From a virus (lineage: Duplodnaviria; Caudoviricetes), in the IMG/VR virus record IMGVR_UViG_3300010366_000014, positions 1-59,310 of that record: a stretch of 59,310 bases of DNA, one strand, 5' to 3'. A model generated the notes under the pieces. It did no database searches, had not been told where the DNA came from, and saw only the letters and a list, made by a program, of their open reading frames with translations. The translations under genes were made by a program, and so were the position numbers. Positions 1-36,000 of this stretch are shown here, piece after piece (positions within the stretch are counted from its first letter, which is position 1; every line of letters begins with the position of its first letter).

Positions 1-20
1 GTGCGATACCGGTGAACCGA
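1..20. repeat. Left arm of 20-bp inverted repeat at window ends
   Basis: GTGCGATACCGGTGAACCGA (1-20) is the exact reverse complement of 59291-59310. Confidence 0.95.
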
Positions 21-1284
21 CGGCCGCGCGCGTGATGATCGTCTGCTTGCGGCCCTTGTACTCATCGTGGGCCTTCACGGTCGCCTTGACGCGGTAGGTG
101 ACACCCTCCTTGTAGTCATCGGAGGTGCCGGTCCACCAGTTCACGGCGTTGCCGGTGGGGTCTTCCCACTTGTTCAGGTAGCGATCGCCCCAGTCACCCT
201 GGAACGCCCGGTAGCCCATGAATGTCAGCTCGAAGGTCTCGCGCTTGCCGACGGTGCCGACCCACTCGTTGGTGCGGGTGGCGGCGCGGCGCTCCTCGGC
301 CTGACGCGCGGCGCGCTGCTCGTGCAGCCGCTTGATGTAGCCGTAGACACTGGCGACGTAGCCCTCGTTACGCGCGCGGACGTAGTCGAGCTGGAGGAGC
401 ACACCGAGGTTGTGCTGGTAATCGTTGGGCTGTTCCACCAACGCCAGGGTCGCGCGCGCTTCGGTAATGATGGATTCGGCCTCGGCCGTGTCGGCCTCAG
501 TGATCGTCCAATCCTCGTCCCACTTGGCGCGCTGGGTCTCGCCCGCGTCCAGGCGCATCTGGTGCGACGCGCGGCCACTGGTGGACTTCCCATCGCCGTT
601 GCGGGCCTGGGAGGCGCTGAGGTAGCCGTGCTCGCGCACGGCCGCGCAGACGTAGGCGAGGTATTCGCCCAGCTCGTGGACACGCTCGCCGGAGCCGCCG
701 AAGCGCTCGCCGGCGGACGAGAGCGATTGCAGGTACTCAGCCATGGCCGCGAGCGCCTGGGGGTCGAGGCCGCCGAGGAAATCCTTGATGCACTGCCTGC
801 CCACTTGGAGCGTCCGGCCGTCCTCGTGGACGAGCACGAACGTGGCGGAGCGCCGGCGGCGCTTGCCGCAGTGCTCGCACAGGGTGGGGTCGGCCGTCTG
901 GTACTGGGCGGGCAGCTCGACGCCCGGGACGGAGCGGACGATCGTGCCGGCCTCGGTGCCCTCGAGGGTGCCACCGAGCGACCAGCCATCGTAGCGGGGC
1001 GTGGTGCCGGTGACGCGGACGCGGACGTGGAGGAAGTCACCCTTCTTCTCGAAGGGTTGGCCGTCGGCGTCGTAGGCGGTATACCAGCGGCGCTTGACGA
1101 TCTCGCCCAGGCGCTCGAGGGTGACGGGCGGGCAGCCGATCTTCGCTGCCTTGCGGTTGATGGCATCGATCTCGCGCTCGAAGCGGGCGACGTTGACCTC
1201 GGGGATCTCGTACTCGCCGATCGTGATTGCGTCATCCTGGGGCGCTGCGGTTGCGGTAATAGCGGAATCGGTGCAGACTGTCAT
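1..1284 (-). CDS. Conserved phage hypothetical protein (CxxC motif, C-terminal OB-fold-like region); 3' end runs off the window
   Basis: Own translation, missing from the ORF track because it is open-ended: AGGAG RBS then MTVCTDSAIT...CEHCGKRRRR...QVGRQCIKDFLG...WVGTVGKRETFELT...KATVKAHDEYKGRKQTIITR. No stop before base 1. Confidence 0.85.
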   Translation of the reverse strand, partial: MTVCTDSAITATAAPQDDAITIGEYEIPEVNVARFEREIDAINRKAAKIGCPPVTLERLGEIVKRRWYTAYDADGQPFEKKGDFLHVRVRVTGTTPRYDGWSLGGTLEGTEAGTIVRSVPGVELPAQYQTADPTLCEHCGKRRRRSATFVLVHEDGRTLQVGRQCIKDFLGGLDPQALAAMAEYLQSLSSAGERFGGSGERVHELGEYLAYVCAAVREHGYLSASQARNGDGKSTSGRASHQMRLDAGETQRAKWDEDWTITEADTAEAESIITEARATLALVEQPNDYQHNLGVLLQLDYVRARNEGYVASVYGYIKRLHEQRAARQAEERRAATRTNEWVGTVGKRETFELTFMGYRAFQGDWGDRYLNKWEDPTGNAVNWWTGTSDDYKEGVTYRVKATVKAHDEYKGRKQTIITRAAVGSPVSH

Positions 1285-1305
1285 CGGTGTGCTCCTTGTC
1301 AGGGA

Positions 1306-1373
1306 TTTGGTTCGCCGGTATCGCACAACAAGCCGTTTGACGGACAGCGGCAGTGCGATACCGACGAACCAAA
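1306..1373 (-). repeat. Long intergenic hairpin (21-bp arms, 26-nt spacer), related to the terminal inverted repeat
   Basis: TTTGGTTCGCCGGTATCGCAC (1306-1326) / GTGCGATACCGACGAACCAAA (1353-1373). The single mismatch is a U-G wobble on the minus strand. Confidence 0.85.
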
Positions 1374-1415
1374 CGGACGCGCGTCGGCGGCAACCGGCGC
1401 GCGTCGCTCTGTCGG

Positions 1416-1829
1416 TCAGACCGCGATCGCGGCGCGGCCGCGCGCGGTGAGGGTGATGATGCCCCGGTCATCCCAGGCGATGGCGATCAGGCGCTCGCGC
1501 TTGCACCAGTTCTGGACGTTGCCGTTGACCTTGATCTGGGGCAGGCCGGCGTTGCGGTAGTAGCTGTTCGTGCCGGTAGCGGCGATGGCCTCGAGGTAGG
1601 CGCGCTGCTTGTCGTTGAGCTTGGGCGGAGGCGTCTGGTCGATCGCGGCATCCTTGAGCGCGGTGATGCGGCGGTAGATGACATCGCGGCGCTCGCGGTA
1701 AAACGAGCAGTCATTGCCAGCGCGCTGGTAGGCGTCGATCTTGTCCTGGGCGGCCCGGGCCTCCTCTCGGAGGATGTCGAGATCGGTGAGGGTGGCGACG
1801 GAGCTGTGGTCGAACTGCGTGGTGTTCAC
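1416..1829 (-). CDS. Hypothetical early protein, C-terminal winged-helix-like
   Basis: AGGAG RBS, GTG start; KLNDKQRAYLEAI...ITLTARGRAA resembles a wHTH end. Confidence 0.7.
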   Translation of the reverse strand: MNTTQFDHSSVATLTDLDILREEARAAQDKIDAYQRAGNDCSFYRERRDVIYRRITALKDAAIDQTPPPKLNDKQRAYLEAIAATGTNSYYRNAGLPQIKVNGNVQNWCKRERLIAIAWDDRGIITLTARGRAAIAV

Positions 1830-1839
1830 GGTGGTCTCC

Positions 1840-2064
1840 TTAGCTGTTGTCTCGGACGGTCATGAGCGCCTGAAAGCGCGCGCGCAGGATGCCGCGATCG
1901 CTCAGGCAGGCCAGTAGCTCCTCATCGGAGTAGCGGGGATTGGCGATCGCCTCCTCCAGCTCATCGAGGACGGCCGCGATCAGATCGAGCGCGGCACCGG
2001 GATTCTCGGGGAGGGTGATGGTCTCATCACCCAGGACGATCGGGGCGAACGGGTCGGTATTCAT
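1840..2064 (-). CDS. Hypothetical early protein
   Basis: GAGGAG RBS then MNTDPFAPIVLG... Confidence 0.7.
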   Translation of the reverse strand: MNTDPFAPIVLGDETITLPENPGAALDLIAAVLDELEEAIANPRYSDEELLACLSDRGILRARFQALMTVRDNS

Positions 2065-2119
2065 GGGGGCGCTCCTCGAGCGGTAAGCATGCTTACGAAA
2101 GCATGCTTTTTCGTGGATA

Positions 2120-2422
2120 TCAGGCGATCGCGGCGGAGCCGGTCTCGGGCCAGCCAGCACGCCCGAGGGCGCGCTGGAGGGCAGCGAACTCGACCTGATG
2201 GTCGATGACGAGCCGGTGGGTTGCCGGCGTGTAGTGGTGGGTGCGGACACCGTGATACCACGTCTCATCGTGGTGGCCGTCGGTGGTGCCGACCCACATC
2301 GGCACGCCCGTCTGGCTATGATCCTTGGCCAGGACACGCGCGCGGGTGAGGGTGGAGCAGACGATCTCCTCCTGATGGTAGAGGGCGCGCGGGAACATGA
2401 CGCGGAAATACTTGTGTCGCAT
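2120..2422 (-). CDS. Hypothetical early protein downstream of hammerhead HH3
   Basis: GGGAGAG RBS then MRHKYFRVMF... Confidence 0.75.
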   Translation of the reverse strand: MRHKYFRVMFPRALYHQEEIVCSTLTRARVLAKDHSQTGVPMWVGTTDGHHDETWYHGVRTHHYTPATHRLVIDHQVEFAALQRALGRAGWPETGSAAIA

Positions 2423-2432
2423 GGTGGTGACT

Positions 2433-2505
2433 CTCCCGTTTCGCGCTTATTGGCCGTAGCCACGCGCGCATTCAGCGCCGGCACCGATTAGCCGGTAGAC
2501 GGGAG
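2433..2505 (-). ncRNA. Type III hammerhead ribozyme HH3 (variant core)
   Basis: Minus strand: CUCCCG-UC | UACCGGC-uaaucggu-GCCGGCG | CUGAAUGC | GCGC-g-UGGC-uacg-GCCA-auaa-GCGC | GAAA | CGGGAG. Predicted GUC cleavage between 2498 and 2497. Confidence 0.75.
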
Positions 2506-2529
2506 GGCGGCGGGTGCCGCCCGGGGAAA

Positions 2530-2766
2530 CTAGGCCTCGTTCACGCGGCCGCGCATGAGGGTGATGTAGTTCGTCTCGAAGCTCATGACGGTGACCTCGC
2601 GCTGCCGGAGAACGGCGGCGACGGCCTGACGCTGCCACGTCTCGCGGATCGGCTCGGTGGTCTCACCGCGAATATCCAGTTCCATGTTGATGGACTGGAT
2701 GCGATTCTTGAGGCGCTCGGAGCGCTGGAGCTGGGCGATGTGCGGGTGAACGGCGTGCTTTGCCAT
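2530..2766 (-). CDS. Hypothetical early protein
   Basis: GGGAG RBS then MAKHAVHPHIAQ... Confidence 0.75.
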   Translation of the reverse strand: MAKHAVHPHIAQLQRSERLKNRIQSINMELDIRGETTEPIRETWQRQAVAAVLRQREVTVMSFETNYITLMRGRVNEA

Positions 2767-2832
2767 GGTGGTGACTCCCTGATGGTGAAGGTGGCGGACC
2801 GGCCCGAGCGGCCGGCCCGATGTCATATCCCC

Positions 2833-3066
2833 TTAGCTGGCGCTCTCGGCGGCCGGCCGGACGCGGACGATGAGATCGTCCGAGTAGATCTTGAGCACCT
2901 CGAGCGGGGTCTCGCGATCGATCATGCGCATGGCCTGCCGATCGATGCCGGTGCGGATCGAGATCGCGGTCTCGCCCCTGGTGTTGAGATTGAAGCGGAT
3001 AACGCGGGCCTTGGCCTGCGCGCGCTTGATGTCGTTGACGGTCTTCTGGACGGATGTGGTGCTCAT
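2833..3066 (-). CDS. Hypothetical early protein downstream of hammerhead HH2
   Basis: GAGGAG RBS then MSTTSVQKTVNDIK... Confidence 0.75.
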   Translation of the reverse strand: MSTTSVQKTVNDIKRAQAKARVIRFNLNTRGETAISIRTGIDRQAMRMIDRETPLEVLKIYSDDLIVRVRPAAESAS

Positions 3067-3080
3067 GGTGTGGTGTGACT

Positions 3081-3139
3081 CCTCGTTTCGCGCTACTGCG
3101 CTCATTCAGCGCCCGGACCTGTAACCGGGACAGACGAGG
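3081..3139 (-). ncRNA. Type III hammerhead ribozyme HH2 (core with one extra A)
   Basis: Minus strand: CCUCG-UC | UGUCCCGG-uuacaggu-CCGGGCG | CUGAAUGA | GCGC-agua-GCGC | GAAA | CGAGG. Predicted GUC cleavage between 3133 and 3132. Confidence 0.85.
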
Positions 3140-3419
3140 GTTGGGGTCGCTGGCGCGCCGGTAATGTTGGAAAATCCCGGGGCGCGGTACGAACGGTAAT
3201 ACTGGATCGGGCGGGGGGAATTTTCCGGGGCGCGGGGGAGGCGGTATAGACGGAATGCGGCGGCGCGCGCGGGCGGGATCGGCGGGGCGGAGGCGATCGG
3301 CGGCTGGCCGGAGCGTGGGCGTACGTACACAGCGGGTCTGGCCTGATGCGCGCGGCCGGCCGGACACTGCCGGCAGCGGCCGCGATGCGCGTGGGGACGG
3401 ATCGGCCGGCCGGCCGGAC

Positions 3420-4154
3420 CTATTGGCCGGCCGCGATCGCGGCCGCTTTGGCCGCGTCCTTGCGTGCTTTGGTGGCCGCGCGCTTTGCAGCGGTCCGGGC
3501 CTTTGCGGCCGCGCGCGCGACCATATCGGTCGGCGGGGTCGGCGGGACAATCAGCGTGCCGGCAAGCGCGGCCGCAAGTGAGTTGAAATAGATCGCGTGT
3601 CCGCTGCCGGCGTAGGTCGCCTGCCAATCAGCGTACGCGCGCCATTGATTGGCGGCCGATCCGTCAAACAAGAGGAACGCATCGGTGATGTACTCATTCC
3701 ATGTCGCCCAATCACCGCGCAGCTTTTCCGCGTCCGCTTTGGAAAGTCCCATGCCTTTGCGCAAAGCCAGGATATCGATGCAGGGACAATCGTATCCCAT
3801 GCATGCGGCCGCAAAGGATGCCTTTGCAAAGGCCAGACCGGTGATATTGTCCTTGATGAACGCGGCCATATCCCAATCGGATCGGCGGAAATCGGCCGTC
3901 GTAAGCTTTGGCAAGAGCGCATCCACGTCCTGAAGGCCGTCATGCGTCATGCTGAAGAACCGCTTGTGATGGGTCTCCCCATCAACCGTCCATTCACCGA
4001 AGTGCTCCTCGTGAGGAGCTACCTTCTCATTGACGCTGTGCAGCGCAAAGCCGCACCCAAAGCGAAAGAGCGTCCGCAGTCCGGCCGTATCGTCTTCCTC
4101 AATCATCGCGATACGGACCGCAGACAGAACCTGAAGATTGTCCAACGCTTGCAT
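3420..4154 (-). CDS. HhH-GPD DNA glycosylase-like protein with Ala/Lys/Arg-rich C-terminal tail; first gene of the early operon
   Basis: ITGLAFAKASFAAACMGYDCPCID resembles the HhH...Asp motif of Ogg2/EndoIII-superfamily enzymes. Start moved to MQALDNL (AAGGA RBS) because the upstream ATG lies inside HH1. Confidence 0.6.
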   Translation of the reverse strand: MQALDNLQVLSAVRIAMIEEDDTAGLRTLFRFGCGFALHSVNEKVAPHEEHFGEWTVDGETHHKRFFSMTHDGLQDVDALLPKLTTADFRRSDWDMAAFIKDNITGLAFAKASFAAACMGYDCPCIDILALRKGMGLSKADAEKLRGDWATWNEYITDAFLLFDGSAANQWRAYADWQATYAGSGHAIYFNSLAAALAGTLIVPPTPPTDMVARAAAKARTAAKRAATKARKDAAKAAAIAAGQ

Positions 4155-4192
4155 GGTACACATCCTTGCCGGCAGCGGCCGGCCACATTCAT

Positions 4193-4252
4193 ACGCGCTG
4201 ATTTCGCCATCCATGGCTCATCAGACCGGATCACATCCGATTATCATCGCGT
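4193..4252 (-). ncRNA. Type III hammerhead ribozyme HH1 (canonical core)
   Basis: Minus strand: ACGCG-a-UGAU-A | AUCGGAU-gug-AUCCGGU | CUGAUGA | GCCA-ugga-UGGC | GAAA | UCA-g-CGCGU. Predicted AUA cleavage between 4242 and 4241. Confidence 0.9.
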
Positions 4253-4531
4253 CCGGTCCGCGTCCTACATCCGGCCGGCCGTATCTACCCTGCTTTGGCT
4301 ATCTAGGCCATGCGTCGATACGGCCGCGTGTATTCCGCGTCCGGTGATTGCTACTCGCGCACATCAACAGTACTCCGGCTTTTCACATAGCAGCGTGTCC
4401 GCCGTACTTTCAGGTATGGGTACAGAGGTTGCCTATGCGGCCGGGATCATCCCATGAATGGGGTCCGCGCGAGGGGCGGGCGTCGCGCGCGTGGGACTGC
4501 GCGTCGCGCCCTGGCTTCAACTGTCAAGGAC

Positions 4532-4561
4532 AGTATAGCAGGCGAAGCGCCTACCTGTCAA
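4532..4561 (-). promoter_or_regulatory. Strong sigma70-type early promoter with palindromic operator in the spacer
   Basis: Minus strand TTGACA-18 nt-TATACT with TGn extension; spacer contains TAGGCG-CTT-CGCCTG. Confidence 0.8.
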
Positions 4562-4732
4562 GCGCCTAGGGCATGCAATTTTCCGCGTCCGGACCCGGAA
4601 TACGGCCGGCCGATCGGACCCTACCGCTTAGTGGCAGCAGTTACCGTGTGAGACATAATCCCCATGGAATGATAGCCGCGCGCGCAGGCCTGTGGGGGAT
4701 GATAGCCGGACGTACCATCACCCGGGCGTATC

Positions 4733-4981
4733 TAGGCGTCTCGCCTATACCCATGGGGATCGATAGCCTCGGCCAATGGTGCAGGGCGGATGTTATCGCC
4801 ACGCTACGGATCGGCGTGGGGCCGGCGGGATCGATCGGACCCGACACCGGACCCGGACCCCGGGGCACGCGCGCCGATCGGCCGGGACGATCCATACCAC
4901 TATGCGAACATTCCCCATAGGCGCCTCGCCTAGGCCTGGAGGCACGGACCCCGGGAAGATCGTCCCTAGGCGTCTCGCCTA
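4733..4981. promoter_or_regulatory. Three copies of palindrome TAGGCG-N3-CGCCTA
   Basis: Copies at 4733-4747, 4918-4932 and 4967-4981. Confidence 0.75.
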
Positions 4982-5126
4982 TAGCTGGTAGCTGCCACCG
5001 TGCCGGAGGATCCCGCCGTGCCGATATATAGCGTTCCGCCAAAGATTTGGGCGGGGCTAGGCACCCCGGAGGCCGCCGGCGTCATCGTATCCATCCCGAG
5101 TCGGGGAGTTGAATGAGGAGCATTGC

Positions 5127-5786
5127 ATGAACCGTAAGGACCGACCTAAGCCTTTGCCCCCACCCCGCCCGAAGAGCAAGGGGCTGATCCCACTCGGCTG
5201 GAAGATCGACCCGCCCGCGCTCGAGCCGGCCGAGGTGCCGAAGGGCCGGGTGGTGGGCCGGGGCACGGCGAACCGCACGCTCGGGATCACGGCCCGGGAG
5301 GATCGGCTGGACCGCGCTGCGGGAGGGCCGGTGGCGCAGGGAGCACCGACGGCGAAAGCGATGGCGGCGGCCCTGCGGGCGAACCGGGGGTTATACGCAC
5401 CGGCGGCGCACGCGCTCGGGGTCTCGCTCAACCTCGTCACGCGCTACTGCGAGAAGTACCAGATGTGCCGGATCGCCCGAGACGAGGCGCGAGCGGCGAT
5501 GAAGGATGTGACGGAGGCGAAGCTCTTCGACTCGATCGAGGCCGGCCAGCCGTGGGCGATCCAGTTCTTCGCGAAGACCCAGATGCGGGAGCGGGGCTAC
5601 GGCGACGAGCGGGTGGTGGATGTGCACGTGAAGCCCGAACCGCCGGCAGCGCCGGTGGAGGAGATCGACTATGACGATTTCAACCGACGCACCGAGAACG
5701 CCCTCCGACTCGTCGCACGCATTGACCGCGCTCAGGGGGCTGAACCCGGAGCGGAAGCGGATCATCAGGAAGACGCTACTGGATAA
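5127..5786 (+). CDS. terS: Terminase small subunit
   Basis: HTH (AAHALGVSLNLV) and EAKLFDSIEAGQPWAIQFFAKT..RERGY motif; directly before TerL; GAGGAG RBS. Confidence 0.8.
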   Translation: MNRKDRPKPLPPPRPKSKGLIPLGWKIDPPALEPAEVPKGRVVGRGTANRTLGITAREDRLDRAAGGPVAQGAPTAKAMAAALRANRGLYAPAAHALGVSLNLVTRYCEKYQMCRIARDEARAAMKDVTEAKLFDSIEAGQPWAIQFFAKTQMRERGYGDERVVDVHVKPEPPAAPVEEIDYDDFNRRTENALRLVARIDRAQGAEPGAEADHQEDATG

Positions 5787-7055
5787 CCCGTACATCCCCC
5801 ACTCCCCGACCGAGCGGCAGGCGGAGTTTTTGAGCCTGATGCTGCGCGAGGCCTTCTATGGCGGCGCAGCGGGGGGGGCAAGTCGGACGCGCTGCTGATG
5901 GCGGCGGCGCAGTTCGTGGATAAACCCGGCTACGCGGCGCTCCTCCTGCGGCGGACGTACGCGGATCTCTCCCTGCCGGGTGCCATCATGGATCGATCGC
6001 ACACGTGGTGGGACACGACGGACGCCCACTGGGACCGGGTCGAGAAGGAATGGACCTTCCCCGCTGGCGGCCGCGTCTCCTTCGGCTTCTTGGCCAACGA
6101 TCAGGATCTCGAGCGCTACAAGAGTGCCGAGTTTCAGTTCATCGGCATGGATGAAGCGACCCAGTTTACGGGCTACCAGTACACCTATATCGGCTCGCGG
6201 CTCCGGCGGGCGGTTGGCTCGAAGATCCCGATCCGCATGCGTGGGGCGTCCAACCCGGGCGGCATCGGCCACGAGTTCATCAAGGGGCGCTTCCTCGGCG
6301 AGCACGCCGATCCGGCCCTGCCGTTCATTCCCGCCAAGCTCACCGACAACCCGCACCTCGATCAGGTCGAGTACCAGAAGTCGCTCGAGAACCTCGACCC
6401 CGTCACCCGCGCCCAGCTCCTCAACGGCGACTGGGATGCGCGCCACGAGGGCGGCTTATTCGATCGCACCAACTTCCGCGTCATCGACCATCTGCCCGAG
6501 CAGGCCACCCGCGTGCGTTACTGGGATCTCGCCGCCACCGTCGCCAAACCCGGCCGCGATCCCGACTGGACCGTCGGCGCGCGTGTCGCCCGGACCCCGC
6601 AGGGGCGCTTCGTGATCGAGGACATCATCCGCGTCCGCGTCTCTCCCGCCGAAGTCGAAGCGCTTCAGCGCCGCACAGCCGAGCGGGACGGCACCGGGGT
6701 GAGTGTCTATGTCGAGCAGGAGCCGGGTGCCTCGGGCAAGATCGTCGCCGACCGGCTGATTCGCGAAGTGCTTGTGGGATATGCCTGCTACGCCGTCCGC
6801 GCCACCGGCTCGAAGGAGGAGCGCGCGCGGCCGTACTCGGCACAGGTCGCCGCCGGCAATGTGGACATCCTGCGCGCCGGGTGGAACCTCCCGTTCTACG
6901 ACGAGCATGAGGCATTTCCCTTTGGCGCACATGACGATCAGGTCGATGCCAGTTCCGGCGCGTTCTCGCAGTTGGCCGTCCGCCGCGTCGTCATCGAGGC
7001 GTTCGCCGGCGGCACCCGCTACACCCCGTCCGTCACCCTGGCCAATATCCGATGA
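5671..7055 (+). CDS. terL: Terminase large subunit, frameshifted in a G8 run within Walker A
   Basis: Joining ORFs 5671-5898 and 5898-7055 with one extra G gives PTERQ...YGGAAGGGKSDALL. Also FIGMDEATQF (Walker B), ASNPGG, and nuclease motifs YWDLA and HDDQVDA. Confidence 0.92.
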
Positions 7056-28009: not shown

Positions 28010-29896
28010 ATGGCGATCATCCGCAAGGAGGGTCACGTCACGTCCGCTCCGGTCACCGTCACCTTCGCGGGTGCGGGCTGGACCGGCGCGAACGCCGCGA
28101 ACCAGACCTACTCCGATCCGGCGTGCTCGGGCAGCAACATGTCATTCACGTACGGCGCAAACGATACCGCCACCTATGCGGTCGCGGCGGGATCCGGCTT
28201 CACGGGGTGCCTGCTCGTCGGTCGCTGCACCTACGCGGGTGATCCGAACATCACCGTGATCGTGGACGGCGTCACCCACGGCACGTGGAGCCAGCAGATC
28301 GTCACCCAGACAGCCGGGGTGCCGCAGTATTTCCTCTATTGGTACTTGTACAAACCGATCGACTGGATCACGACCGACCCGACCGGAGCGAACGCCCACA
28401 CGATCGTCGTGCGTTGTAGCGGCGGCGGGCAGCTCTGCATCGACTGCCTCGACTTCTATGACGCGGCGCGCAACGCCACCCTCGAATCCGTCTATGTCTT
28501 CGGGAACTCCCTCGCCTACGGCAGCGATCCGACCAACCCGCCCACGGGCCAGTACGCAAGCCCCGCCGGGATGGAGCTGGCCCGCCTCCTCGGCCTGGGC
28601 AGCGCGCTGAACGCGGGTGTCAATGCCGCCGATCTGACGAACGGGCAGAACGGCGCGTACGGCCCCGGTGGCGTGTCGAACATGCAGTTCTTCTCCAACG
28701 GCGCGGTCGCGCTCCCCGATTACTCGCGCGCCTACGGCAACTGGAACAATGACCAGCGGCGCTACGGCGTCCTCTTCCACCAGCACAATGATGTCGGCTA
28801 CAGCCAGCTCTACAACGATCCGGTCGGCTGGGGCTACACGGACAACCACTCGAATGGCGCGGCACCGTGGAAGTCGGGTTCCGTGATCTACTGGAACCCG
28901 CCGATCACCTCATCCGGTGGCAACGCCGTCTGGACGCTCAACTACAACAGCCTGACGACCGTCATCTCCTACACGGACGCTGTCTCCGTCATCAATAACA
29001 AGATGCAATCCGCGAACATCCCGTACACCTGTTTCCGGCTCGGACAGGATCAGTCAGTCGGGCCGGGGTGCTTCTACTTCATCGCCAACAACGCGCGTGC
29101 CGAGCCCGCCGGGGCAACGAACGGCCTGATTACCCAGACCAATGTGCTGAACGTCACCACCGGAGCGTACGGGCAGATTCAGCCGAACAACAATGAAACC
29201 GTCCTGCTCCATTCCGGTTCCGTCCCACCGACGAGCGGCACCTTCACGACCACCTGGGGGAGCAAGACCGCCACCCACAACGTCGGTGACACCGCCGCGC
29301 AGATGAACACCACCTTCGGCGCGGCGGGGTTGCCGTACAGCGCCGCCTCGATCACGGGCACCGCGCTGATCACCGCGAACAGCCTGCGCCAGTTCACCAG
29401 CAGTGCCTTCGCCTACGGCTCACACGGCTACCCGCTGACCTTCAACTTCGCCAACGTCCTGCCCGTGAACCACACGCTGACGGTTTCCAGCGATCTGGTC
29501 GTCGGTCGCAACGCGGCACCCGCCGGGACGGGCTGGGCGGAGAACCGTTTCTTTCTCCGCTTGCGCGAGATGCTCTGGCGGCGGCAGATGAGCGTGCGGG
29601 ACGGCTTCGTCCTCTGCGTGCCGTCCCCGCCCAGCAACGACCTGAACGTCGGCGCGAACCAGTACTACAACCTGCTGATCCAGCGGGCCTGCGCCGACCC
29701 GTCCGTCAAGAACGCGGTCTGTGTGGACATCTGGAATGCCCTCTCCAGCGGCAGCGGGCCGGGGAACAACCAGGGCACGATGAACGCGGACGGCGTCCAC
29801 TACACCCAGGCGGGACACAGTGTCGTCGGTTCCTTACTCTACGACGCGGTGCGGATGACGCGGCTCGAGCAGCAGAAAGTGCGCGCCGCGCGCTAG
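28010..29896 (+). CDS. Virion-associated SGNH/GDSL esterase-like protein
   Basis: VFGNSLAYG (block I), HNDV, DGVHYTQAGH (block V); large insertion between blocks. Confidence 0.75.
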   Translation: MAIIRKEGHVTSAPVTVTFAGAGWTGANAANQTYSDPACSGSNMSFTYGANDTATYAVAAGSGFTGCLLVGRCTYAGDPNITVIVDGVTHGTWSQQIVTQTAGVPQYFLYWYLYKPIDWITTDPTGANAHTIVVRCSGGGQLCIDCLDFYDAARNATLESVYVFGNSLAYGSDPTNPPTGQYASPAGMELARLLGLGSALNAGVNAADLTNGQNGAYGPGGVSNMQFFSNGAVALPDYSRAYGNWNNDQRRYGVLFHQHNDVGYSQLYNDPVGWGYTDNHSNGAAPWKSGSVIYWNPPITSSGGNAVWTLNYNSLTTVISYTDAVSVINNKMQSANIPYTCFRLGQDQSVGPGCFYFIANNARAEPAGATNGLITQTNVLNVTTGAYGQIQPNNNETVLLHSGSVPPTSGTFTTTWGSKTATHNVGDTAAQMNTTFGAAGLPYSAASITGTALITANSLRQFTSSAFAYGSHGYPLTFNFANVLPVNHTLTVSSDLVVGRNAAPAGTGWAENRFFLRLREMLWRRQMSVRDGFVLCVPSPPSNDLNVGANQYYNLLIQRACADPSVKNAVCVDIWNALSSGSGPGNNQGTMNADGVHYTQAGHSVVGSLLYDAVRMTRLEQQKVRAAR

Positions 29897-33291: not shown

Positions 33292-34899
33292 ATGCAGCTC
33301 GGCATTCACGCACCGACGCAGGGATGGACCGGCCGCGCCCAGCAGACGGCGGCGGCGCTCGACGCGGAGGCCTTCCTCTGGCTGGCCGCCGAGCGGGTCA
33401 CGGACGCCTACCCGTACACGACGGCGCTGCACATCGTGCGGCTGGCGAACTGGGCGACGACGGACACGCCGATCGGCTACACCAACGCGGTGGCCGGCAC
33501 GGTCAATAGCTGGGCGAGCCTGCCCGGGGTCGTCTTCCAGTGCGGCAACGAGCCGGACGCGGAGGCGGGCCACAACGGCGAGATGTTCCCCCAGATCGCG
33601 GCGGCGATGCGATCGCGCTGGCCGACGATCCTCCTGGCCAATCCCCCGCTCCGCCCCGAGAACTGCGGCGCGCTCACGGACGAGACCTGTGAGGCGGCCG
33701 ACTTCATCGCCTGCCACTGCTACTGGCAAGTCAATCACCCCGAGGACGAGGCCAACCCGGGCCTGGGCGCGGCCTACCGCCAGCTCCTCGACTACGGCAT
33801 CCCCGTGATCGTGACGGAGGTCAACGCCGTGCCGGCCTCGGGCAACGGCAATGACCCGAATGTGCCGTGGGACGAGCGCAACACCCAGGTGGCGGACTGG
33901 GCCTTCCAGGCGATGGCGGACGGCGTCGCCGCGTGCTGCATCTACCTCGCGGACGCGGCCCCGGACTGGGCCGGCTTCGATGTCGGGCCGGAGGCGGCGG
34001 CGGACATCCGCGCCCAGTACGACGAATGGATGGACGATCCCGACCCCGCGCCGCCGCCGCCCGAACCACTCCCCGACCCCCGACCCCCCGATGGAGGTGG
34101 CACGATGGTCAGCGCGCAGGATGTCATCGACATGGCATCCACCCAGCTCTACTGCCCGCGATCAGGTGCGTATGATTCGCTCAACGGAGACCATCCGTGG
34201 GCCTATTGGTGTTTGGCTTTCGTTGAAAGTACCCATAGGAACTTAGGGCTAGACGTACCACCTCAATCCTCGGCGTATCAGGCTGGTCTGTCGTTCGACC
34301 TGAATGGCGGCCCCGCACCATTAGGTGCAGCCATGTTTTTTGGGCAGTCCTTTTATTACCCCGATGGCCATGTTGCCTTCAGCACCGGCGATGACTGGTG
34401 CCTGGGGACGGTGACGAACGGTGAGGGTGTCGATTACTGCTACTGGAACTCCACGACCAATGGCTACATGGGTTGGACCTATTACCCGGGGGTGACCCCG
34501 GCCGATGCGCCCGCGCCCGATCCGCCGCCGCCGACGTGGCTGGTGCAGCCGGGGAATCCCTATCAGGAGGGGAAGCCCGACGAGATCGGCATCGGCGGCG
34601 GGTTCCTCAGGTACTACAACGCGATCGCGATCGGCCAGGATCCGATGGTCGCGCTCGGCTACGCGCGCGAGCGGGAGTGTGATGCCTACGTCACCGACGC
34701 GGACGGCACGACGAACCTGCGCACGATTCAGCGCTTCGAGCGCGCGACCCTGATCTATCAAGAGGGTGAGCCGTTCCCGTGGGATGTCGTGGCCGCCCTG
34801 TTCAATCAGCAGATCGCGAACGCGGCTCCGCTGTCACAGGGCGCTCCGGAAGGCGACCCTGACGCCAGTCTGGATGTATCTGCGGATGACGCGACTTGA
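33292..34899 (+). CDS. Modular endolysin: glycoside-hydrolase-like domain, CHAP/NlpC-like peptidase, Chloroflexota-type 'FERA' repeat
   Basis: GNEPD, HCYW and VTEVN (clan-A GH-like); Pro linkers; WCLAFV...GHVAFS; GGGFLRYY...LGY...IQRFERATL. Confidence 0.8.
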   Translation: MQLGIHAPTQGWTGRAQQTAAALDAEAFLWLAAERVTDAYPYTTALHIVRLANWATTDTPIGYTNAVAGTVNSWASLPGVVFQCGNEPDAEAGHNGEMFPQIAAAMRSRWPTILLANPPLRPENCGALTDETCEAADFIACHCYWQVNHPEDEANPGLGAAYRQLLDYGIPVIVTEVNAVPASGNGNDPNVPWDERNTQVADWAFQAMADGVAACCIYLADAAPDWAGFDVGPEAAADIRAQYDEWMDDPDPAPPPPEPLPDPRPPDGGGTMVSAQDVIDMASTQLYCPRSGAYDSLNGDHPWAYWCLAFVESTHRNLGLDVPPQSSAYQAGLSFDLNGGPAPLGAAMFFGQSFYYPDGHVAFSTGDDWCLGTVTNGEGVDYCYWNSTTNGYMGWTYYPGVTPADAPAPDPPPPTWLVQPGNPYQEGKPDEIGIGGGFLRYYNAIAIGQDPMVALGYARERECDAYVTDADGTTNLRTIQRFERATLIYQEGEPFPWDVVAALFNQQIANAAPLSQGAPEGDPDASLDVSADDAT

Positions 34900-35089
34900 T
34901 CTGCGCGCACAGGTCCGGATCGTCCAGGCAGGCCGTGATGAACATGCCGATCCAGCCGGAGCGCGCGCCGCCGGCCTCGACGACGAAGCTGTCCAGGCGC
35001 GCGAGCAACTCCCGCTCGATATTGAGCGTAATCGGTTGTGTGTGGGTGGTGCGCCGGCGGCGATCGCCGGTCTCAGCCCGTGTTGCCAT
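34802..35089 (-). CDS. Ribbon-helix-helix/CopG-like DNA-binding protein
   Basis: PITLNIERELLARLDSF...RSGWI. Confidence 0.55.
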   Translation of the reverse strand: MATRAETGDRRRRTTHTQPITLNIERELLARLDSFVVEAGGARSGWIGMFITACLDDPDLCAQIKSRHPQIHPDWRQGRLPERPVTAEPRSRSAD

Positions 35090-35091
35090 GC

Positions 35092-35484
35092 TTATTCCTG
35101 TCCTTCCTCTTCCCTATCTGCCCCCTGGTCGTGCTCCCACACGATCAGGGGTTTTTTTACGCCCAGCATTTCAGCCACGTCGGCCACCATTTCCGTGTGG
35201 AGTAGCTCGGCCGTCTCCCAGGTGAGGGCGCGCTGATAGTAGGTCTGCCCGTCCGGCAGGAAGACCATCGTCTCGAAGCAGCAGCCGTGGAAGCCGAGGA
35301 ACTGCCCGAGGAAGACGGTCGAGACGCGCGCCGCGCCGACCATCGTCTTCGCGACCCGCCGCTCCGCGTGATGCCAGTGCATCCACTCGTTCCACACGTC
35401 GTAATCCTCGATGCCGAGCGGCACGACCGTGCGGCCGTCCTCGGCCAGAATGCAGATGATGTAATGGCGATCAGCGTCCATCAT
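35092..35484 (-). CDS. Conserved phage hypothetical protein
   Basis: VSTVFLG...FETMVF...TWETAELLH pattern. Confidence 0.7.
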   Translation of the reverse strand: MMDADRHYIICILAEDGRTVVPLGIEDYDVWNEWMHWHHAERRVAKTMVGAARVSTVFLGQFLGFHGCCFETMVFLPDGQTYYQRALTWETAELLHTEMVADVAEMLGVKKPLIVWEHDQGADREEEGQE

Positions 35485-35755
35485 TCCAGGCGCTCCCCCA
35501 GAGGCTGCCGCAATAAAAGTTCGCCTCGTTGCGATTGAGCCGGATCTGGATGCCCAGCTCTCCCGCCAGCACGACGACCAGTGCGTCACCCGTCTCGGGA
35601 TGGGTGCCGATGTAGACGCGCTCCGCGTCGATCGTCCCCTGGATCAGGAACTCCGGCCACTCGCCGTCGTTCACGAGGGTGATCGTCGCGCCGCATGCGA
35701 GGGTGCCGGCCACGCCGGCGAGAAAACGCAGCCGCCGCTCATCCGCTTCATTCAT
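35471..35755 (-). CDS. Hypothetical protein
   Basis: GGGGAG RBS; overlapping operon structure. Confidence 0.65.
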   Translation of the reverse strand: MNEADERRLRFLAGVAGTLACGATITLVNDGEWPEFLIQGTIDAERVYIGTHPETGDALVVVLAGELGIQIRLNRNEANFYCGSLWGSAWNDGR

Positions 35756-36000
35756 GGCGTCTCCCCGTCATCGGCCAGATACGACGCGCCCAGCTCGGCG
35801 TAGTAGGCCTCGTCCAGCTCGACCATCGCGCCGAGGATGACCCGCATGATGTACCGCCGGGTCCAGGCGCTCTGGCGGAGGGTTTCGTCGTCGTAGACGT
35901 TCATGAAGCTGCGCATCAGGCGGAAGACCTGCATTTCCGCCTCGAACACGACGCGCTGCCGGCCGCGTCGCGCGGCCTCGCTGTGGTCACGGCCGTCCAT
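35752..36000 (-). CDS. Hypothetical protein
   Basis: TGATG overlap, MDGRDHSEA... Confidence 0.6.
   Translation of the reverse strand: MDGRDHSEAARRGRQRVVFEAEMQVFRLMRSFMNVYDDETLRQSAWTRRYIMRVILGAMVELDEAYYAELGASYLADDGETP

What the first reader, a model, noticed from the sequence alone, without database searches (positions are those of the whole stretch)
2433..4252. Three hammerhead ribozymes punctuate the start of the phage early operon
Seen: three type III hammerhead folds on the minus strand (HH1 4193-4252, HH2 3081-3139, HH3 2433-2505). All are in the sense of the transcript from the strong promoter at 4532-4561, and each lies just 5' of an early gene (genes 1, 2 and 4). Their stem I sequences differ yet all pair, so structure rather than sequence is conserved. 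Established: hammerheads cleave after NUH, leaving 5'-OH and 2',3'-cyclic phosphate ends, and T7 uses host RNase III to cut its early polycistron. Inference: this phage may cut its earliest mRNA into units without host nucleases, giving 5'-OH, hairpin-protected ends that resist 5'-monophosphate-dependent decay.
Basis: partly seen in the sequence, partly recalled or inferred. Interest (0 to 1): 0.93.

Follow-up and report, generated by a model that had tools for sequence, protein, structure and literature searches.

The report
Three hammerhead ribozyme motifs in phage operon
Three hammerhead-type self-cutting RNA motifs really do sit in front of genes 1, 2 and 4 of one operon of this soil phage, but clusters like this have been known in phages since 2011, and two of the three carry an unusual extra base in the catalytic core.

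Summary
A covariance model built only from 54 canonical type III hammerheads of other phage contigs ranks exactly the three reported elements first in the whole window: HH2 33.9 bits, HH1 27.2, HH3 25.8, next hit 10.9. The same model finds 0 hits in 1.05 Mb of related phage DNA.

HH1 has a perfect core. HH2 and HH3 are paralogues with an 8-nt strand, CUGAAUGA and CUGAAUGC. This is the "A6a" insertion that Perreault et al. 2011 reported as a rare natural variant of low activity. HH3 also has C at position 9.

I found a lineage of this variant, 29 distinct sequences with strong covariation, mostly just upstream of a ribosome site and start codon.

Rfam at its gathering score misses all three, but it also missed the 7 canonical phage examples I gave it.

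Cleavage itself is untested. HH1 has a strong competing fold.

Clustered hammerheads flanking phage genes, and the idea that they process polycistronic RNA, are published (PMC3088659). This scan has noted phage hammerheads on other DNA many times. Verdict: a new member of a known kind, of moderate interest.

The parts
4532..4561 (-). Sigma-70-type promoter, TTGACA-18 nt-TATACT with TG before the second hexamer. It is the only promoter-like site on the minus strand in 1-5200.
   Evidence: 11 of 12 matches; sequence.
4242..4524 (-). Untranslated leader of about 283 nt that HH1 cleavage would remove. The start point is inferred from the position of the -10 hexamer.
   Evidence: Inference. The transcription start is not mapped.
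4252..4260 (-). CGGACCGGA, complementary over 9 bp to 4230-4222 (the 3' strand of HH1 stem I plus C3-U4-G5 of the core). A competing 'off' helix.
   Evidence: with this segment included, the best fold that contains HH1 is 7.2 to 12.7 kcal/mol above the minimum-free-energy fold.
4193..4252 (-). HH1, a canonical type III hammerhead: cleavage after A4242, stem I 4241-4225, CUGAUGA 4224-4218, stem II 4217-4206, GAAA 4205-4202, stem III 3' strand 4202-4193.
   Evidence: (27.2 bits, E 8.5e-5).
3420..4154 (-). Gene 1 (244 aa, no Pfam or PHROG family). The start at 4154 has AAGGA 8 nt upstream. An in-frame ATG at 4214 lies inside HH1 stem II.
   Evidence: Local similarity to the first gene of relative L003.
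3140..3419 (-). 280-nt untranslated spacer between gene 1 and HH2, C-rich and G-poor as RNA (C 134, G 74; in 3300-3201 C 55, G 21).
3081..3139 (-). HH2, a hammerhead with the A6a insertion: cleavage after C3133, stem I 3132-3110, CUGAAUGA 3109-3102, stem II 3101-3090, GAAA 3089-3086, stem III 3' strand ACGAGG 3086-3081 running into the GGAG ribosome site.
   Evidence: (33.9 bits, E 1.6e-6).
2833..3066 (-). Gene 2 (77 aa), unknown function, weak paralogue of gene 3.
2530..2766 (-). Gene 3 (78 aa), unknown function. No hammerhead upstream of it, but the same GGAGUCACCACCAUG ribosome site.
2506..2522 (-). GC hairpin GGGCGG(C)-ACCC-(G)CCGCCC directly after the gene 3 stop codon (2532-2530), abutting HH3 stem III. 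It would be the 3'-terminal hairpin of the upstream cleavage product.
   Evidence: Folds.
2433..2505 (-). HH3, a hammerhead with the A6a insertion and C at position 9: cleavage after C2498, stem I 2497-2476 (loop UAAUCGGU), CUGAAUGC 2475-2468, extended stem II 2467-2443, GAAA 2442-2439, stem III 3' strand ACGGGAG 2439-2433, which holds the ribosome site.
   Evidence: (25.8 bits, E 2e-4).
2120..2422 (-). Gene 4 (100 aa), unknown function.

Best explanation
The three elements are genuine members of the hammerhead ribozyme class with type III topology. They lie in the leader and in two intergenic spacers of one leftward operon driven by a sigma-70-type promoter.

HH1 has the canonical core. HH2 and HH3 are paralogous members of a conserved phage lineage whose core strand has one extra adenosine after A6 (CUGAA-N-GA).

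Most likely mechanism (inferred, not shown): as the polycistronic RNA is made, each motif folds and cuts itself after A4242, C3133 and C2498. This would give four RNAs:
- a leader of about 283 nt;
- a gene 1 RNA (4241-3133);
- a gene 2 plus gene 3 RNA (3132-2498);
- a gene 4 and onward RNA (from 2497).

Each downstream product would begin with a 5'-OH followed by the compact stem I and stem II hairpins, then the ribosome site 10-38 nt before the start codon. Each upstream product would end in a 2',3'-cyclic phosphate.

In HH2 and HH3 the 3' strand of stem III is part of the GGAG ribosome site. Cutting and release of the 6-7 bp upstream strand would therefore also free that site.

I expect unequal activity: HH2 moderate or slow, HH3 weak or dead because of A9C, and HH1 dependent on escaping a competing helix.
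For: Identity of the motifs:
- Model R2, built from 54 canonical hammerheads of other phage contigs, ranks the three elements 1-3 in the window. The fourth hit scores 10.9 bits.
- R2 finds 0 hits in 1.05 Mb of related phage loci.
- Shuffles gave 7 canonical descriptor hits in 600 shuffled windows, and 0 with stems as good.
- HH1's stem I tip GGAUGUG-AUCC and stem II GCCA/UGGC recur: 13 of 29 distinct type III hammerheads found through the stem II pattern share that stem I tip.

The inserted core is conserved rather than decay:
- In a scan that fixed loop 1 and GAAAC but not the core, 9 of 9 full-structure hits (4 distinct sequences) had the 8-nt core. The base at N7 varied between U and C.
- In 29 distinct family members, 94.5% of cells pair and 14 of 18 pairs show compensatory changes. 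0 of 500 shuffles reach this, and slid controls pair at 31-42%.
- With identical flanks, IMG/VR holds 88 stretches with the canonical core and 11 with the inserted core.

Context:
- The hammerhead fold of HH2 and HH3 lies within 2.5 and 1.5 kcal/mol of the minimum free energy in about 160-nt contexts.
- 19 of 26 inserted-core and 38 of 53 canonical elements have a ribosome site, a start codon and an ORF of at least 40 codons within 70 nt downstream. At random positions the figure is 287 of 1580.
- Two inserted-core elements elsewhere lie 220-340 nt from Rfam-certified ribozymes on the same strand: Twister-P5 in L137 and type II hammerhead in L193.
- Another phage contig has 4 type III hammerheads within 2.5 kb on one strand.

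Literature: tandem prophage hammerheads cut about 2-kb native transcripts in vitro, and an A6a natural variant had low but detectable activity (PMC3088659).
Against: - No cleavage or RNA-end data exist for this phage.
- The only tested A6a variant had low activity, and the authors expected the insertion to harm the core.
- HH3 has C at the conserved A9. In the one scan that left position 9 free, all 5 full-structure family hits had A there.
- A second copy in L274 has G8A. Some copies of this lineage may therefore be catalytically dead yet retained.
- HH1 alone prefers a fold in which CUGAU pairs with AUCAG (-21.4 against -19.3 kcal/mol; pair probabilities 0.84-0.87 against 0.11-0.13). In its native context an upstream 9-bp competitor makes the hammerhead fold 7.2-12.7 kcal/mol worse than the minimum.
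- Rfam RF00008 gives HH1 19.2 bits against a threshold of 48.5, and gives HH2 and HH3 nothing.
- The closest terminase relatives have no hammerhead in the fetched stretches. L003 has plain hairpins in the equivalent spacers.
- The covariation set was chosen partly by a filter that required stem I pairing, and it was aligned to the model, so both lean toward the structure.
Confidence: 0.6

Rival explanations
1. The motifs descend from hammerheads, but in this phage they mainly act as structured leader modules, and cutting is negligible for HH2 and HH3 at least. The three-way junction would protect the 5' side of each cistron and hold the ribosome site in stem III, setting translation levels. 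The inserted A and the A9C change would mark loss or damping of catalysis.
For: - A6a is reported as low-activity, and the insertion is expected to disturb the U4 contact.
- HH3 has A9C, and the second L274 copy has G8A.
- The ribosome site lies inside or next to the stem III 3' strand in HH2 and HH3, and start codons follow closely in 19 of 26 family members.
- HH1 is thermodynamically disfavoured in its context.
Against: - The family keeps every other catalytic-core base (C3 U4 G5 A6, G8 A9, G12 A13 A14, A15.1-U16.1 and the GUC site). A mere scaffold would not need these. Most of these positions were fixed by my search patterns; in the scan that left the core free, all 9 hits kept them.
- Certified ribozymes of other classes sit beside family members.
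- The variable base is exactly N7, as in active hammerheads.
Confidence: 0.27
2. The two same-sense ribozymes HH2 and HH3 excise the 635-nt gene 2 plus gene 3 segment (3132-2498) with 5'-OH and 2',3'-cyclic-phosphate ends. A host RtcB-type ligase then closes it into a circular RNA.
For: The geometry allows it: two same-strand sites bracket two small genes. The end chemistry suits RtcB, which is established knowledge recalled by me and not tested here. Another first-reader note raised the same idea (e1-6282332).
Against: Perreault et al. looked for spliced or circular products from clustered phage hammerheads and detected none (passage read). Nothing in the sequence specifically favours joining the ends, and I found no pairing that would bring 3132 and 2498 together.
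Confidence: 0.06
3. The matches are chance resemblances in GC-rich intergenic hairpins.
For: Rfam finds nothing at its thresholds. HH1 has no orthologue with which to test covariation.
Against: - Shuffles gave 0 of 600 hits with comparable stems.
- The R2 E-values are 1.6e-6 to 2e-4, against 1.3 for the next hit.
- R2 gives 0 hits in 1.05 Mb of control phage DNA.
- All three lie on one strand, in non-coding spacers, within 1.8 kb.
- HH2 and HH3 have close structural relatives elsewhere.
Confidence: 0.02

Closest known systems
Clustered hammerhead ribozymes flanking genes in prophage and phage transcripts (Perreault et al. 2011, PLoS Comput Biol, PMC3088659)
   Same: - Several complete cis hammerheads lie on one strand, each in a spacer before a single gene or a short block of genes of unknown and non-constant identity.
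- The proposed role is cutting a long phage RNA into gene-length mRNAs.
- That paper observed in vitro cleavage for three tandem arrangements (passages read).
   Different: - Here the first ribozyme lies in the leader directly behind a strong promoter.
- Two of the three have the inserted core.
- The ribosome site is part of stem III.
- Activity is untested here.
- I could not see the paper's supplementary figures and alignments, so some of my family members may already be listed there.
A6a core-insertion variant of the hammerhead (Perreault et al. 2011, Figure 5 and section 8)
   Same: One extra nucleotide after A6 in an otherwise consensus core, found in a natural sequence, with low measured activity (section 8 read). 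HH2 has exactly this core, CUGAAUGA.
   Different: - The paper treats it as a rare single variation.
- Here it defines a recurring lineage: 29 distinct sequences in my limited scans, with covarying stems and two loop subtypes.
- HH3 adds A9C.
- Which organism carried the published A6a example is shown only in a supplement that I could not open.
Rfam RF00008 Hammerhead_3 (type III hammerheads of viroids, satellites and plants)
   Same: Same topology (stems I and II capped, stem III open) and same core. HH1 aligns end to end with the model.
   Different: - The score is far below gathering (19.2 against 48.5), and HH2 and HH3 get no hit.
- The model also missed the 7 canonical and 7 inserted-core phage elements that I gave it. 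The phage type III group is therefore poorly covered by this model.
RNase III processing of the phage T7 early polycistronic RNA (textbook knowledge, recalled)
   Same: Same proposed outcome: a single early transcript is cut between cistrons at structured spacers, leaving hairpins at the new ends.
   Different: - T7 uses a host protein enzyme that cuts double-stranded stems and leaves 5'-phosphate and 3'-OH ends.
- Here the RNA would cut itself and leave 5'-OH and a cyclic phosphate.
- The relative L003 has repeated plain hairpins in the equivalent spacers. These could be of the RNase III kind, but I did not test that.

Membership tests
Hammerhead ribozyme, type III topology | Three helices meet at one junction. 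Stems I and II are closed by loops and stem III is open. | tested here: met
   Descriptor scan; folds; alignment to model R2 over positions 1-54 for all three elements.
Hammerhead ribozyme, type III topology | Consensus core: C3 U4 G5 A6 N7 G8 A9, G12 A13 A14, the A15.1-U16.1 pair, and H17 (not G) at the cut site. | tested here: inconclusive
   - HH1: all positions met (CUGAUGA, GAAA, U-A pair, A17).
- HH2: all met except for one extra A after A6.
- HH3: the extra A plus C at position 9.
Sequence read; alignments.
Hammerhead ribozyme, type III topology | Reaches the curated Rfam gathering score (RF00008, 48.5 bits). | tested here: not met
   0 hits at gathering score in the window. HH1 scores 19.2 bits when searched alone, and HH2 and HH3 get no hammerhead hit. 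Calibration: the same threshold reported none of the 7 canonical phage type III elements in 6 loci, so this failure says little.
Hammerhead ribozyme, type III topology | The helices are supported by compensatory changes among relatives. | tested here: met
   - For the HH2/HH3 family: 29 distinct sequences, 14 of 18 pairs with changes on both sides, 0 of 500 shuffles as high. Caveats: the rows were pre-filtered for stem I pairing and aligned to the model.
- For HH1: inconclusive. I found no orthologue, only class-mates that share the stem I tip and stem II.
Hammerhead ribozyme, type III topology | A tertiary contact between loop 1 and loop 2 or stem II, needed for fast cleavage at physiological Mg2+. 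| not testable with these tools
   Loop 1 UAAUCGGU is conserved in HH3 and in 9 viral hits. The A-rich 3' bulge in stem II is suggestive, but I modelled no contact.
Hammerhead ribozyme, type III topology | Mg2+-dependent self-cleavage 3' of position 17. | not testable with these tools
   This needs in vitro transcription or end mapping. No run on record as RNA was listed.
Clustered phage hammerheads (Perreault et al. 2011) | Two or more hammerheads on one strand that flank single genes or short gene blocks in a phage or prophage. | tested here: met
   Three elements lie in 1.8 kb on the minus strand, before genes 1, 2 and 4. The record is a phage with terminase, portal and major head protein, and CheckV rates it 100% complete.
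A6a insertion variant lineage | An 8-nt strand between stems I and II reading CUGAA-N-GA, in an otherwise complete hammerhead. | tested here: met
   HH2 has CUGAAUGA. HH3 has CUGAAUGC and meets this only in part, because of C at the last position. Family members are listed.

The most novel reading that the evidence does not exclude
The inserted-core (A6a) hammerheads are not crippled copies. They are a selected subclass of slow or conditionally active ribozymes whose stem III hides the ribosome site. Self-cutting and release of the short upstream strand would then act as a built-in timer, or a switch that turns on translation of the downstream phage gene. HH1, with its upstream competitor helix, would be a second, differently gated switch at the head of the same operon.
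Probability: 0.15. Interest if true: 0.65.

Novelty: new member of a known kind. Interest (0 to 1): 0.4.

Why it matters
The biological role of the many hammerheads in phages is still an open question (reviews PMC6155905 and PMC6765202, passages read). This locus is a clean example: one promoter, three ribozyme motifs and four predicted RNA units.

It also shows that the A6a core insertion, published as a rare low-activity oddity, marks a conserved lineage with covarying stems that usually sits directly before a ribosome site. That makes two questions testable. First, does this lineage cut slowly on purpose? Second, does cutting control translation?

A practical point: the Rfam type III model at its curated threshold missed every phage example tried here, so routine annotation under-reports these elements.

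The finding does not change what is known about the kind of system. The host is unknown because the record comes from a soil metagenome, which limits in vivo tests.

Tried and rejected
- Rfam on the window at gathering score, on 2300-4700 at E<=10 and on each element alone: only HH1 gave a weak RF00008 hit. I rejected this as evidence against, after one search showed that the same library misses canonical phage type III hammerheads.
- BLAST of 2300-4700 against GenBank phages: no match. BLAST of an L174 element and of HH3 against the same collection: nothing, apart from one 20-nt chance match in a Microviridae record.
- Relatives through gene 1: none in viral contigs.
- Relatives through the terminase: 80 loci kept. 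None has a hammerhead by descriptor, apart from one doubtful hit in L038, nor by R1 or R2.
- tblastn of genes 1-4 against all 568 fetched loci (5.06 Mb): no hit at E<=1e-3. No orthologous spacers could therefore be compared.
It gave no useful picture of hosts.
- R1 on the window found no further family copy. The third hit (28696-28765, 18 bits) lacks the core.
- Sequencing runs: no RNA holder was listed. The one DNA holder, a soil metagenome, may be the source sample.
- Split terminase idea: the 385-aa ORF matches only positions 185-610 of phrog_979, but the upstream ORFs 5109-5786 and 5671-5898 have no PHROG hit. I dropped the idea.
- Literature: searches for 'hammerhead'+'A6a' (2 papers, only Perreault 2011 relevant) and 'hammerhead'+'CUGAAUGA' (0 papers).
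Full report
WHAT THE WINDOW IS

The window is a complete-looking virus record of 59,310 bases: an IMG/VR record that CheckV rates 100% complete, with about 66% G+C. It encodes terminase, portal and major head proteins. Its only listed sequencing holder is a soil metagenome.

The minus strand carries a near-consensus sigma-70 promoter at 4561-4532: TTGACA, an 18-nt spacer, then TATACT with a TG before it, 11 of 12 matches. No other promoter-like site lies on that strand in 1-5200, and no terminator-like site lies before 1348.

Downstream of the promoter are gene 1 (4154-3420), gene 2 (3066-2833), gene 3 (2766-2530), gene 4 (2422-2120) and more small genes. None of the 14 operon proteins I tested has a Pfam or PHROG family. 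'Early operon' is therefore an inference from position and gene type, not a result.

THE OBSERVATION

Read on the minus strand, all three elements have the hammerhead layout.
- HH1 (4252-4193) matches the consensus at every core position: cut site AUA, CUGAUGA, GAAA, and the A15.1-U16.1 pair.
- HH2 (3139-3081) and HH3 (2505-2433) have GUC cut sites and GAAA, but their strand between stems I and II has eight bases: CUGAAUGA in HH2 and CUGAAUGC in HH3.

IS IT MORE THAN CHANCE?

- A plain descriptor (core, GAAA, three stems, U-H at the site) finds only HH1 with the canonical core and only HH2 with a one-base-longer core in the whole window on both strands. HH3 escapes it because the second pair of its stem I is an A-C mismatch.
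- In 600 dinucleotide-preserving shuffles of the window there were 7 canonical hits in all, and none with stems as good as HH1's. For the longer core there were 5 hits, and none as good as HH2's.
- The strongest test uses an independent model. I collected type III hammerheads from IMG/VR with a pattern that fixes only CCGUC, the core, the GC closing pairs of stem II and GAAACGG (88 stretches). I aligned 54 distinct ones and built covariance model R2.
- With filters off, the top three of R2's 23 hits in the window at E<=10 are HH2 (33.9 bits, E 1.6e-6), HH1 (27.2 bits, E 8.5e-5) and HH3 (25.8 bits, E 2e-4). The fourth has 10.9 bits, E 1.3.
- The same model gives no hit at E<=1 in 80 loci (1,048,557 bases) around related terminases.
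- E-values from these quickly calibrated models are rough, but the gap is large.

WHY RFAM IS SILENT

- There is no hit at gathering score in the window.
- There is no hammerhead among 4 weak hits in 2300-4700.
- HH1 scores 19.2 bits against a threshold of 48.5 when searched alone, and HH2 and HH3 get nothing.

I then gave Rfam 12 loci known to carry 7 canonical and 7 inserted-core type III elements. It reported none of them. It did report a Twister-P5 ribozyme in L137, a type II hammerhead in L193, five tRNAs and a gut-2 RNA. The curated type III model is therefore not sensitive to the phage group, and its silence is not evidence against.

HH2 AND HH3 BELONG TO A CONSERVED INSERTED-CORE LINEAGE

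- Perreault et al. 2011 (PMC3088659, section 8 read) report a natural insertion after A6, 'A6a', with low activity. A search of the paper library for 'hammerhead' with 'A6a' found no other relevant paper, and 'CUGAAUGA' with 'hammerhead' found none.
- A pattern scan of IMG/VR for the inserted core gave 113 stretches. Five had the full architecture: L097, L137, L171, L174 and L193.
- A second scan fixed loop 1 (UAAUCGGU, as in HH3), CUGA and CGAAAC, and left the rest of the core free. It gave 81 stretches, of which 9 were full hammerheads (4 distinct sequences). All 9 had eight-base cores, six CUGAAUGA and three CUGAACGA, and none was canonical.
- With identical flanks, IMG/VR holds 11 inserted-core and 88 canonical stretches.
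- The metagenome collection gave 56 stretches: 25 distinct sequences passed a stem filter and 24 rows failed it. The failures were mostly CUGAAGGA in coding-like sequence.
- Model R1 (built from HH2, HH3, L171 and L174) then recovered 35 matches, 29 of them distinct, in the 32 sources I gave it.
- On that alignment 94.5% of cells form standard pairs, and 14 of 18 pairs have changes on both sides. No shuffle of 500 reaches any of the five measures, and sliding the partners drops pairing to 31-42%.

These counts lean toward the structure for three reasons: the patterns fixed several positions, I pre-filtered for stem I pairing, and the alignment was fitted to the model. Even so, stem I was not in any pattern, and all seven of its pairs covary.

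Close structural twins exist.
- L528 has the same stem II as HH2 (GCGC-AGUA-GCGC) and a similar loop 1.
- L487 resembles HH3.
- L137 (inserted core) differs from canonical L275 and L289 mainly by the extra A.

The insertion therefore sits inside ordinary hammerhead lineages and persists there. The base that varies (U, C or A) is N7, the one free core position.

CONTEXT IS THE USUAL ONE FOR PHAGE HAMMERHEADS

- 38 of 53 canonical and 19 of 26 inserted-core elements have a ribosome site, a start codon and an ORF of at least 40 codons within 70 nt downstream. The median distances are 17.5 and 21 nt. At random positions in the same loci the figure is 287 of 1580.
- In the window the distances from the end of stem III to the start codon are 38, 14 and 10 nt.
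- In HH2 and HH3 the 3' strand of stem III runs into the GGAG ribosome site.
- Other contigs also carry clusters. L274 has two inserted-core copies 340 nt apart. The contig of L345 has four type III hammerheads within 2.5 kb on one strand.
- Perreault et al. describe such clusters in prophages, propose processing into single-gene mRNAs, and saw the expected fragments from about 2-kb native transcripts of three tandem arrangements in vitro.
- Two reviews state that the role of bacterial and phage hammerheads remains open.
- Earlier notes of this scan hold the words hammerhead, ribozyme and phage in 3,529 findings from at least 2,250 genomes. The scan has therefore met this kind of feature on other DNA many times.

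DOUBTS ABOUT ACTIVITY

- HH3 has C at A9. In the one scan that left position 9 free, all 5 full-structure hits had A there.
- The second L274 copy has A at G8. Some retained copies may be catalytically dead.
- HH1 alone prefers a fold in which the core CUGAU pairs with AUCAG of stem III: -21.4 against -19.3 kcal/mol, with pair probabilities 0.84-0.87 against 0.11-0.13.
- With its native upstream sequence, a 9-bp helix between 4260-4252 and 4230-4222 makes the hammerhead fold 7.2 to 12.7 kcal/mol worse than the minimum. Such energy models ignore the tertiary and junction contacts of the hammerhead.
- HH2 and HH3, by contrast, lie within 2.5 and 1.5 kcal/mol of the minimum in context.
- No RNA data could be found.

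RELATIVES

- The closest terminase relatives (L002 and L003, 69-70% identity) show no hammerhead in what could be fetched.
- L003 has a similar promoter and a first gene with a 42-residue match to gene 1 (48% identity, pairwise E 9e-9). Its spacers carry repeated plain hairpins instead.
- The hammerheads are therefore not a fixed feature of this phage group. This fits the patchy, module-like distribution reported in the literature.

VERDICT

The elements are new members of a known kind.

The modest new points are four:
- the A6a insertion marks a conserved lineage;
- HH3 and a copy elsewhere carry further core changes;
- HH1 has a strong competing helix;
- Rfam's type III threshold misses this phage group.

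Noticed in passing
window 2810-4611: The palindromic octamer GGCCGGCC occurs 19 times in the window, against 5.4 expected (0 of 100 shuffles reach 19). Nine copies lie in this 1.8-kb stretch. Pairs of copies flank HH1 (4273-4280 and 4177-4184), the gene 1 stop codon (3425-3432, 3404-3415) and the gene 2 stop codon (2851-2858, 2810-2817). In context folds the pair around HH1 forms a GC clamp that encloses the ribozyme.
   Followed up: partly
window 3140-3419, peak at 3201-3300: The 280-nt untranslated spacer between gene 1 and HH2 is C-rich and G-poor as RNA (C 134, G 74; C 55 against G 21 in 3300-3201). It resembles a Rho-utilisation type tract. I ran no test of function.
   Followed up: no
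L137 8710-8777 (-) and L193 1449-1513 (-): Rfam-certified ribozymes of other kinds lie close to inserted-core hammerheads on the same strand. Twister-P5 (58.4 bits) lies about 220 nt downstream in L137, and a type II hammerhead (42.6 bits) about 340 nt upstream in L193.
   Followed up: partly
L274 7345-7427 (-): A second inserted-core hammerhead lies 340 nt downstream of the first. Its core reads CUGAAUAA, with A at the conserved G8, yet it keeps all three stems, an upstream G/C hairpin and a downstream ribosome site.
   Followed up: partly
record of L345 (G005) 33453-35944 (+): Four type III hammerheads lie within 2.5 kb on one strand of a 57-kb phage contig (R2 E 1.8e-12 to 1.4e-8). This cluster is denser than the one in the window.
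   Followed up: no
L003 150-1030 (-): The closest relative has repeated intergenic hairpins built on CACCAGGC...GCCUGGUG just before each ribosome site of its small genes, in the places where this window has hammerheads.
   Followed up: no
window 2530-3066: Genes 2 and 3 are weak paralogues (27% identity over 66 residues, pairwise E 2e-5). Genes 2, 3 and 4 share the ribosome-site block GGAGUCAC..CACCAUG.
   Followed up: partly
window 5109-7055: The 385-aa terminase ORF (5898-7055) matches only positions 185-610 of the 642-position PHROG profile. The two upstream ORFs that could supply the N-terminal part have no PHROG hit.
   Followed up: partly
12 loci: Rfam RF00008 at its gathering score reported none of the 7 canonical and 7 inserted-core type III phage hammerheads given to it. 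Standard annotation will therefore miss this group.
   Followed up: yes
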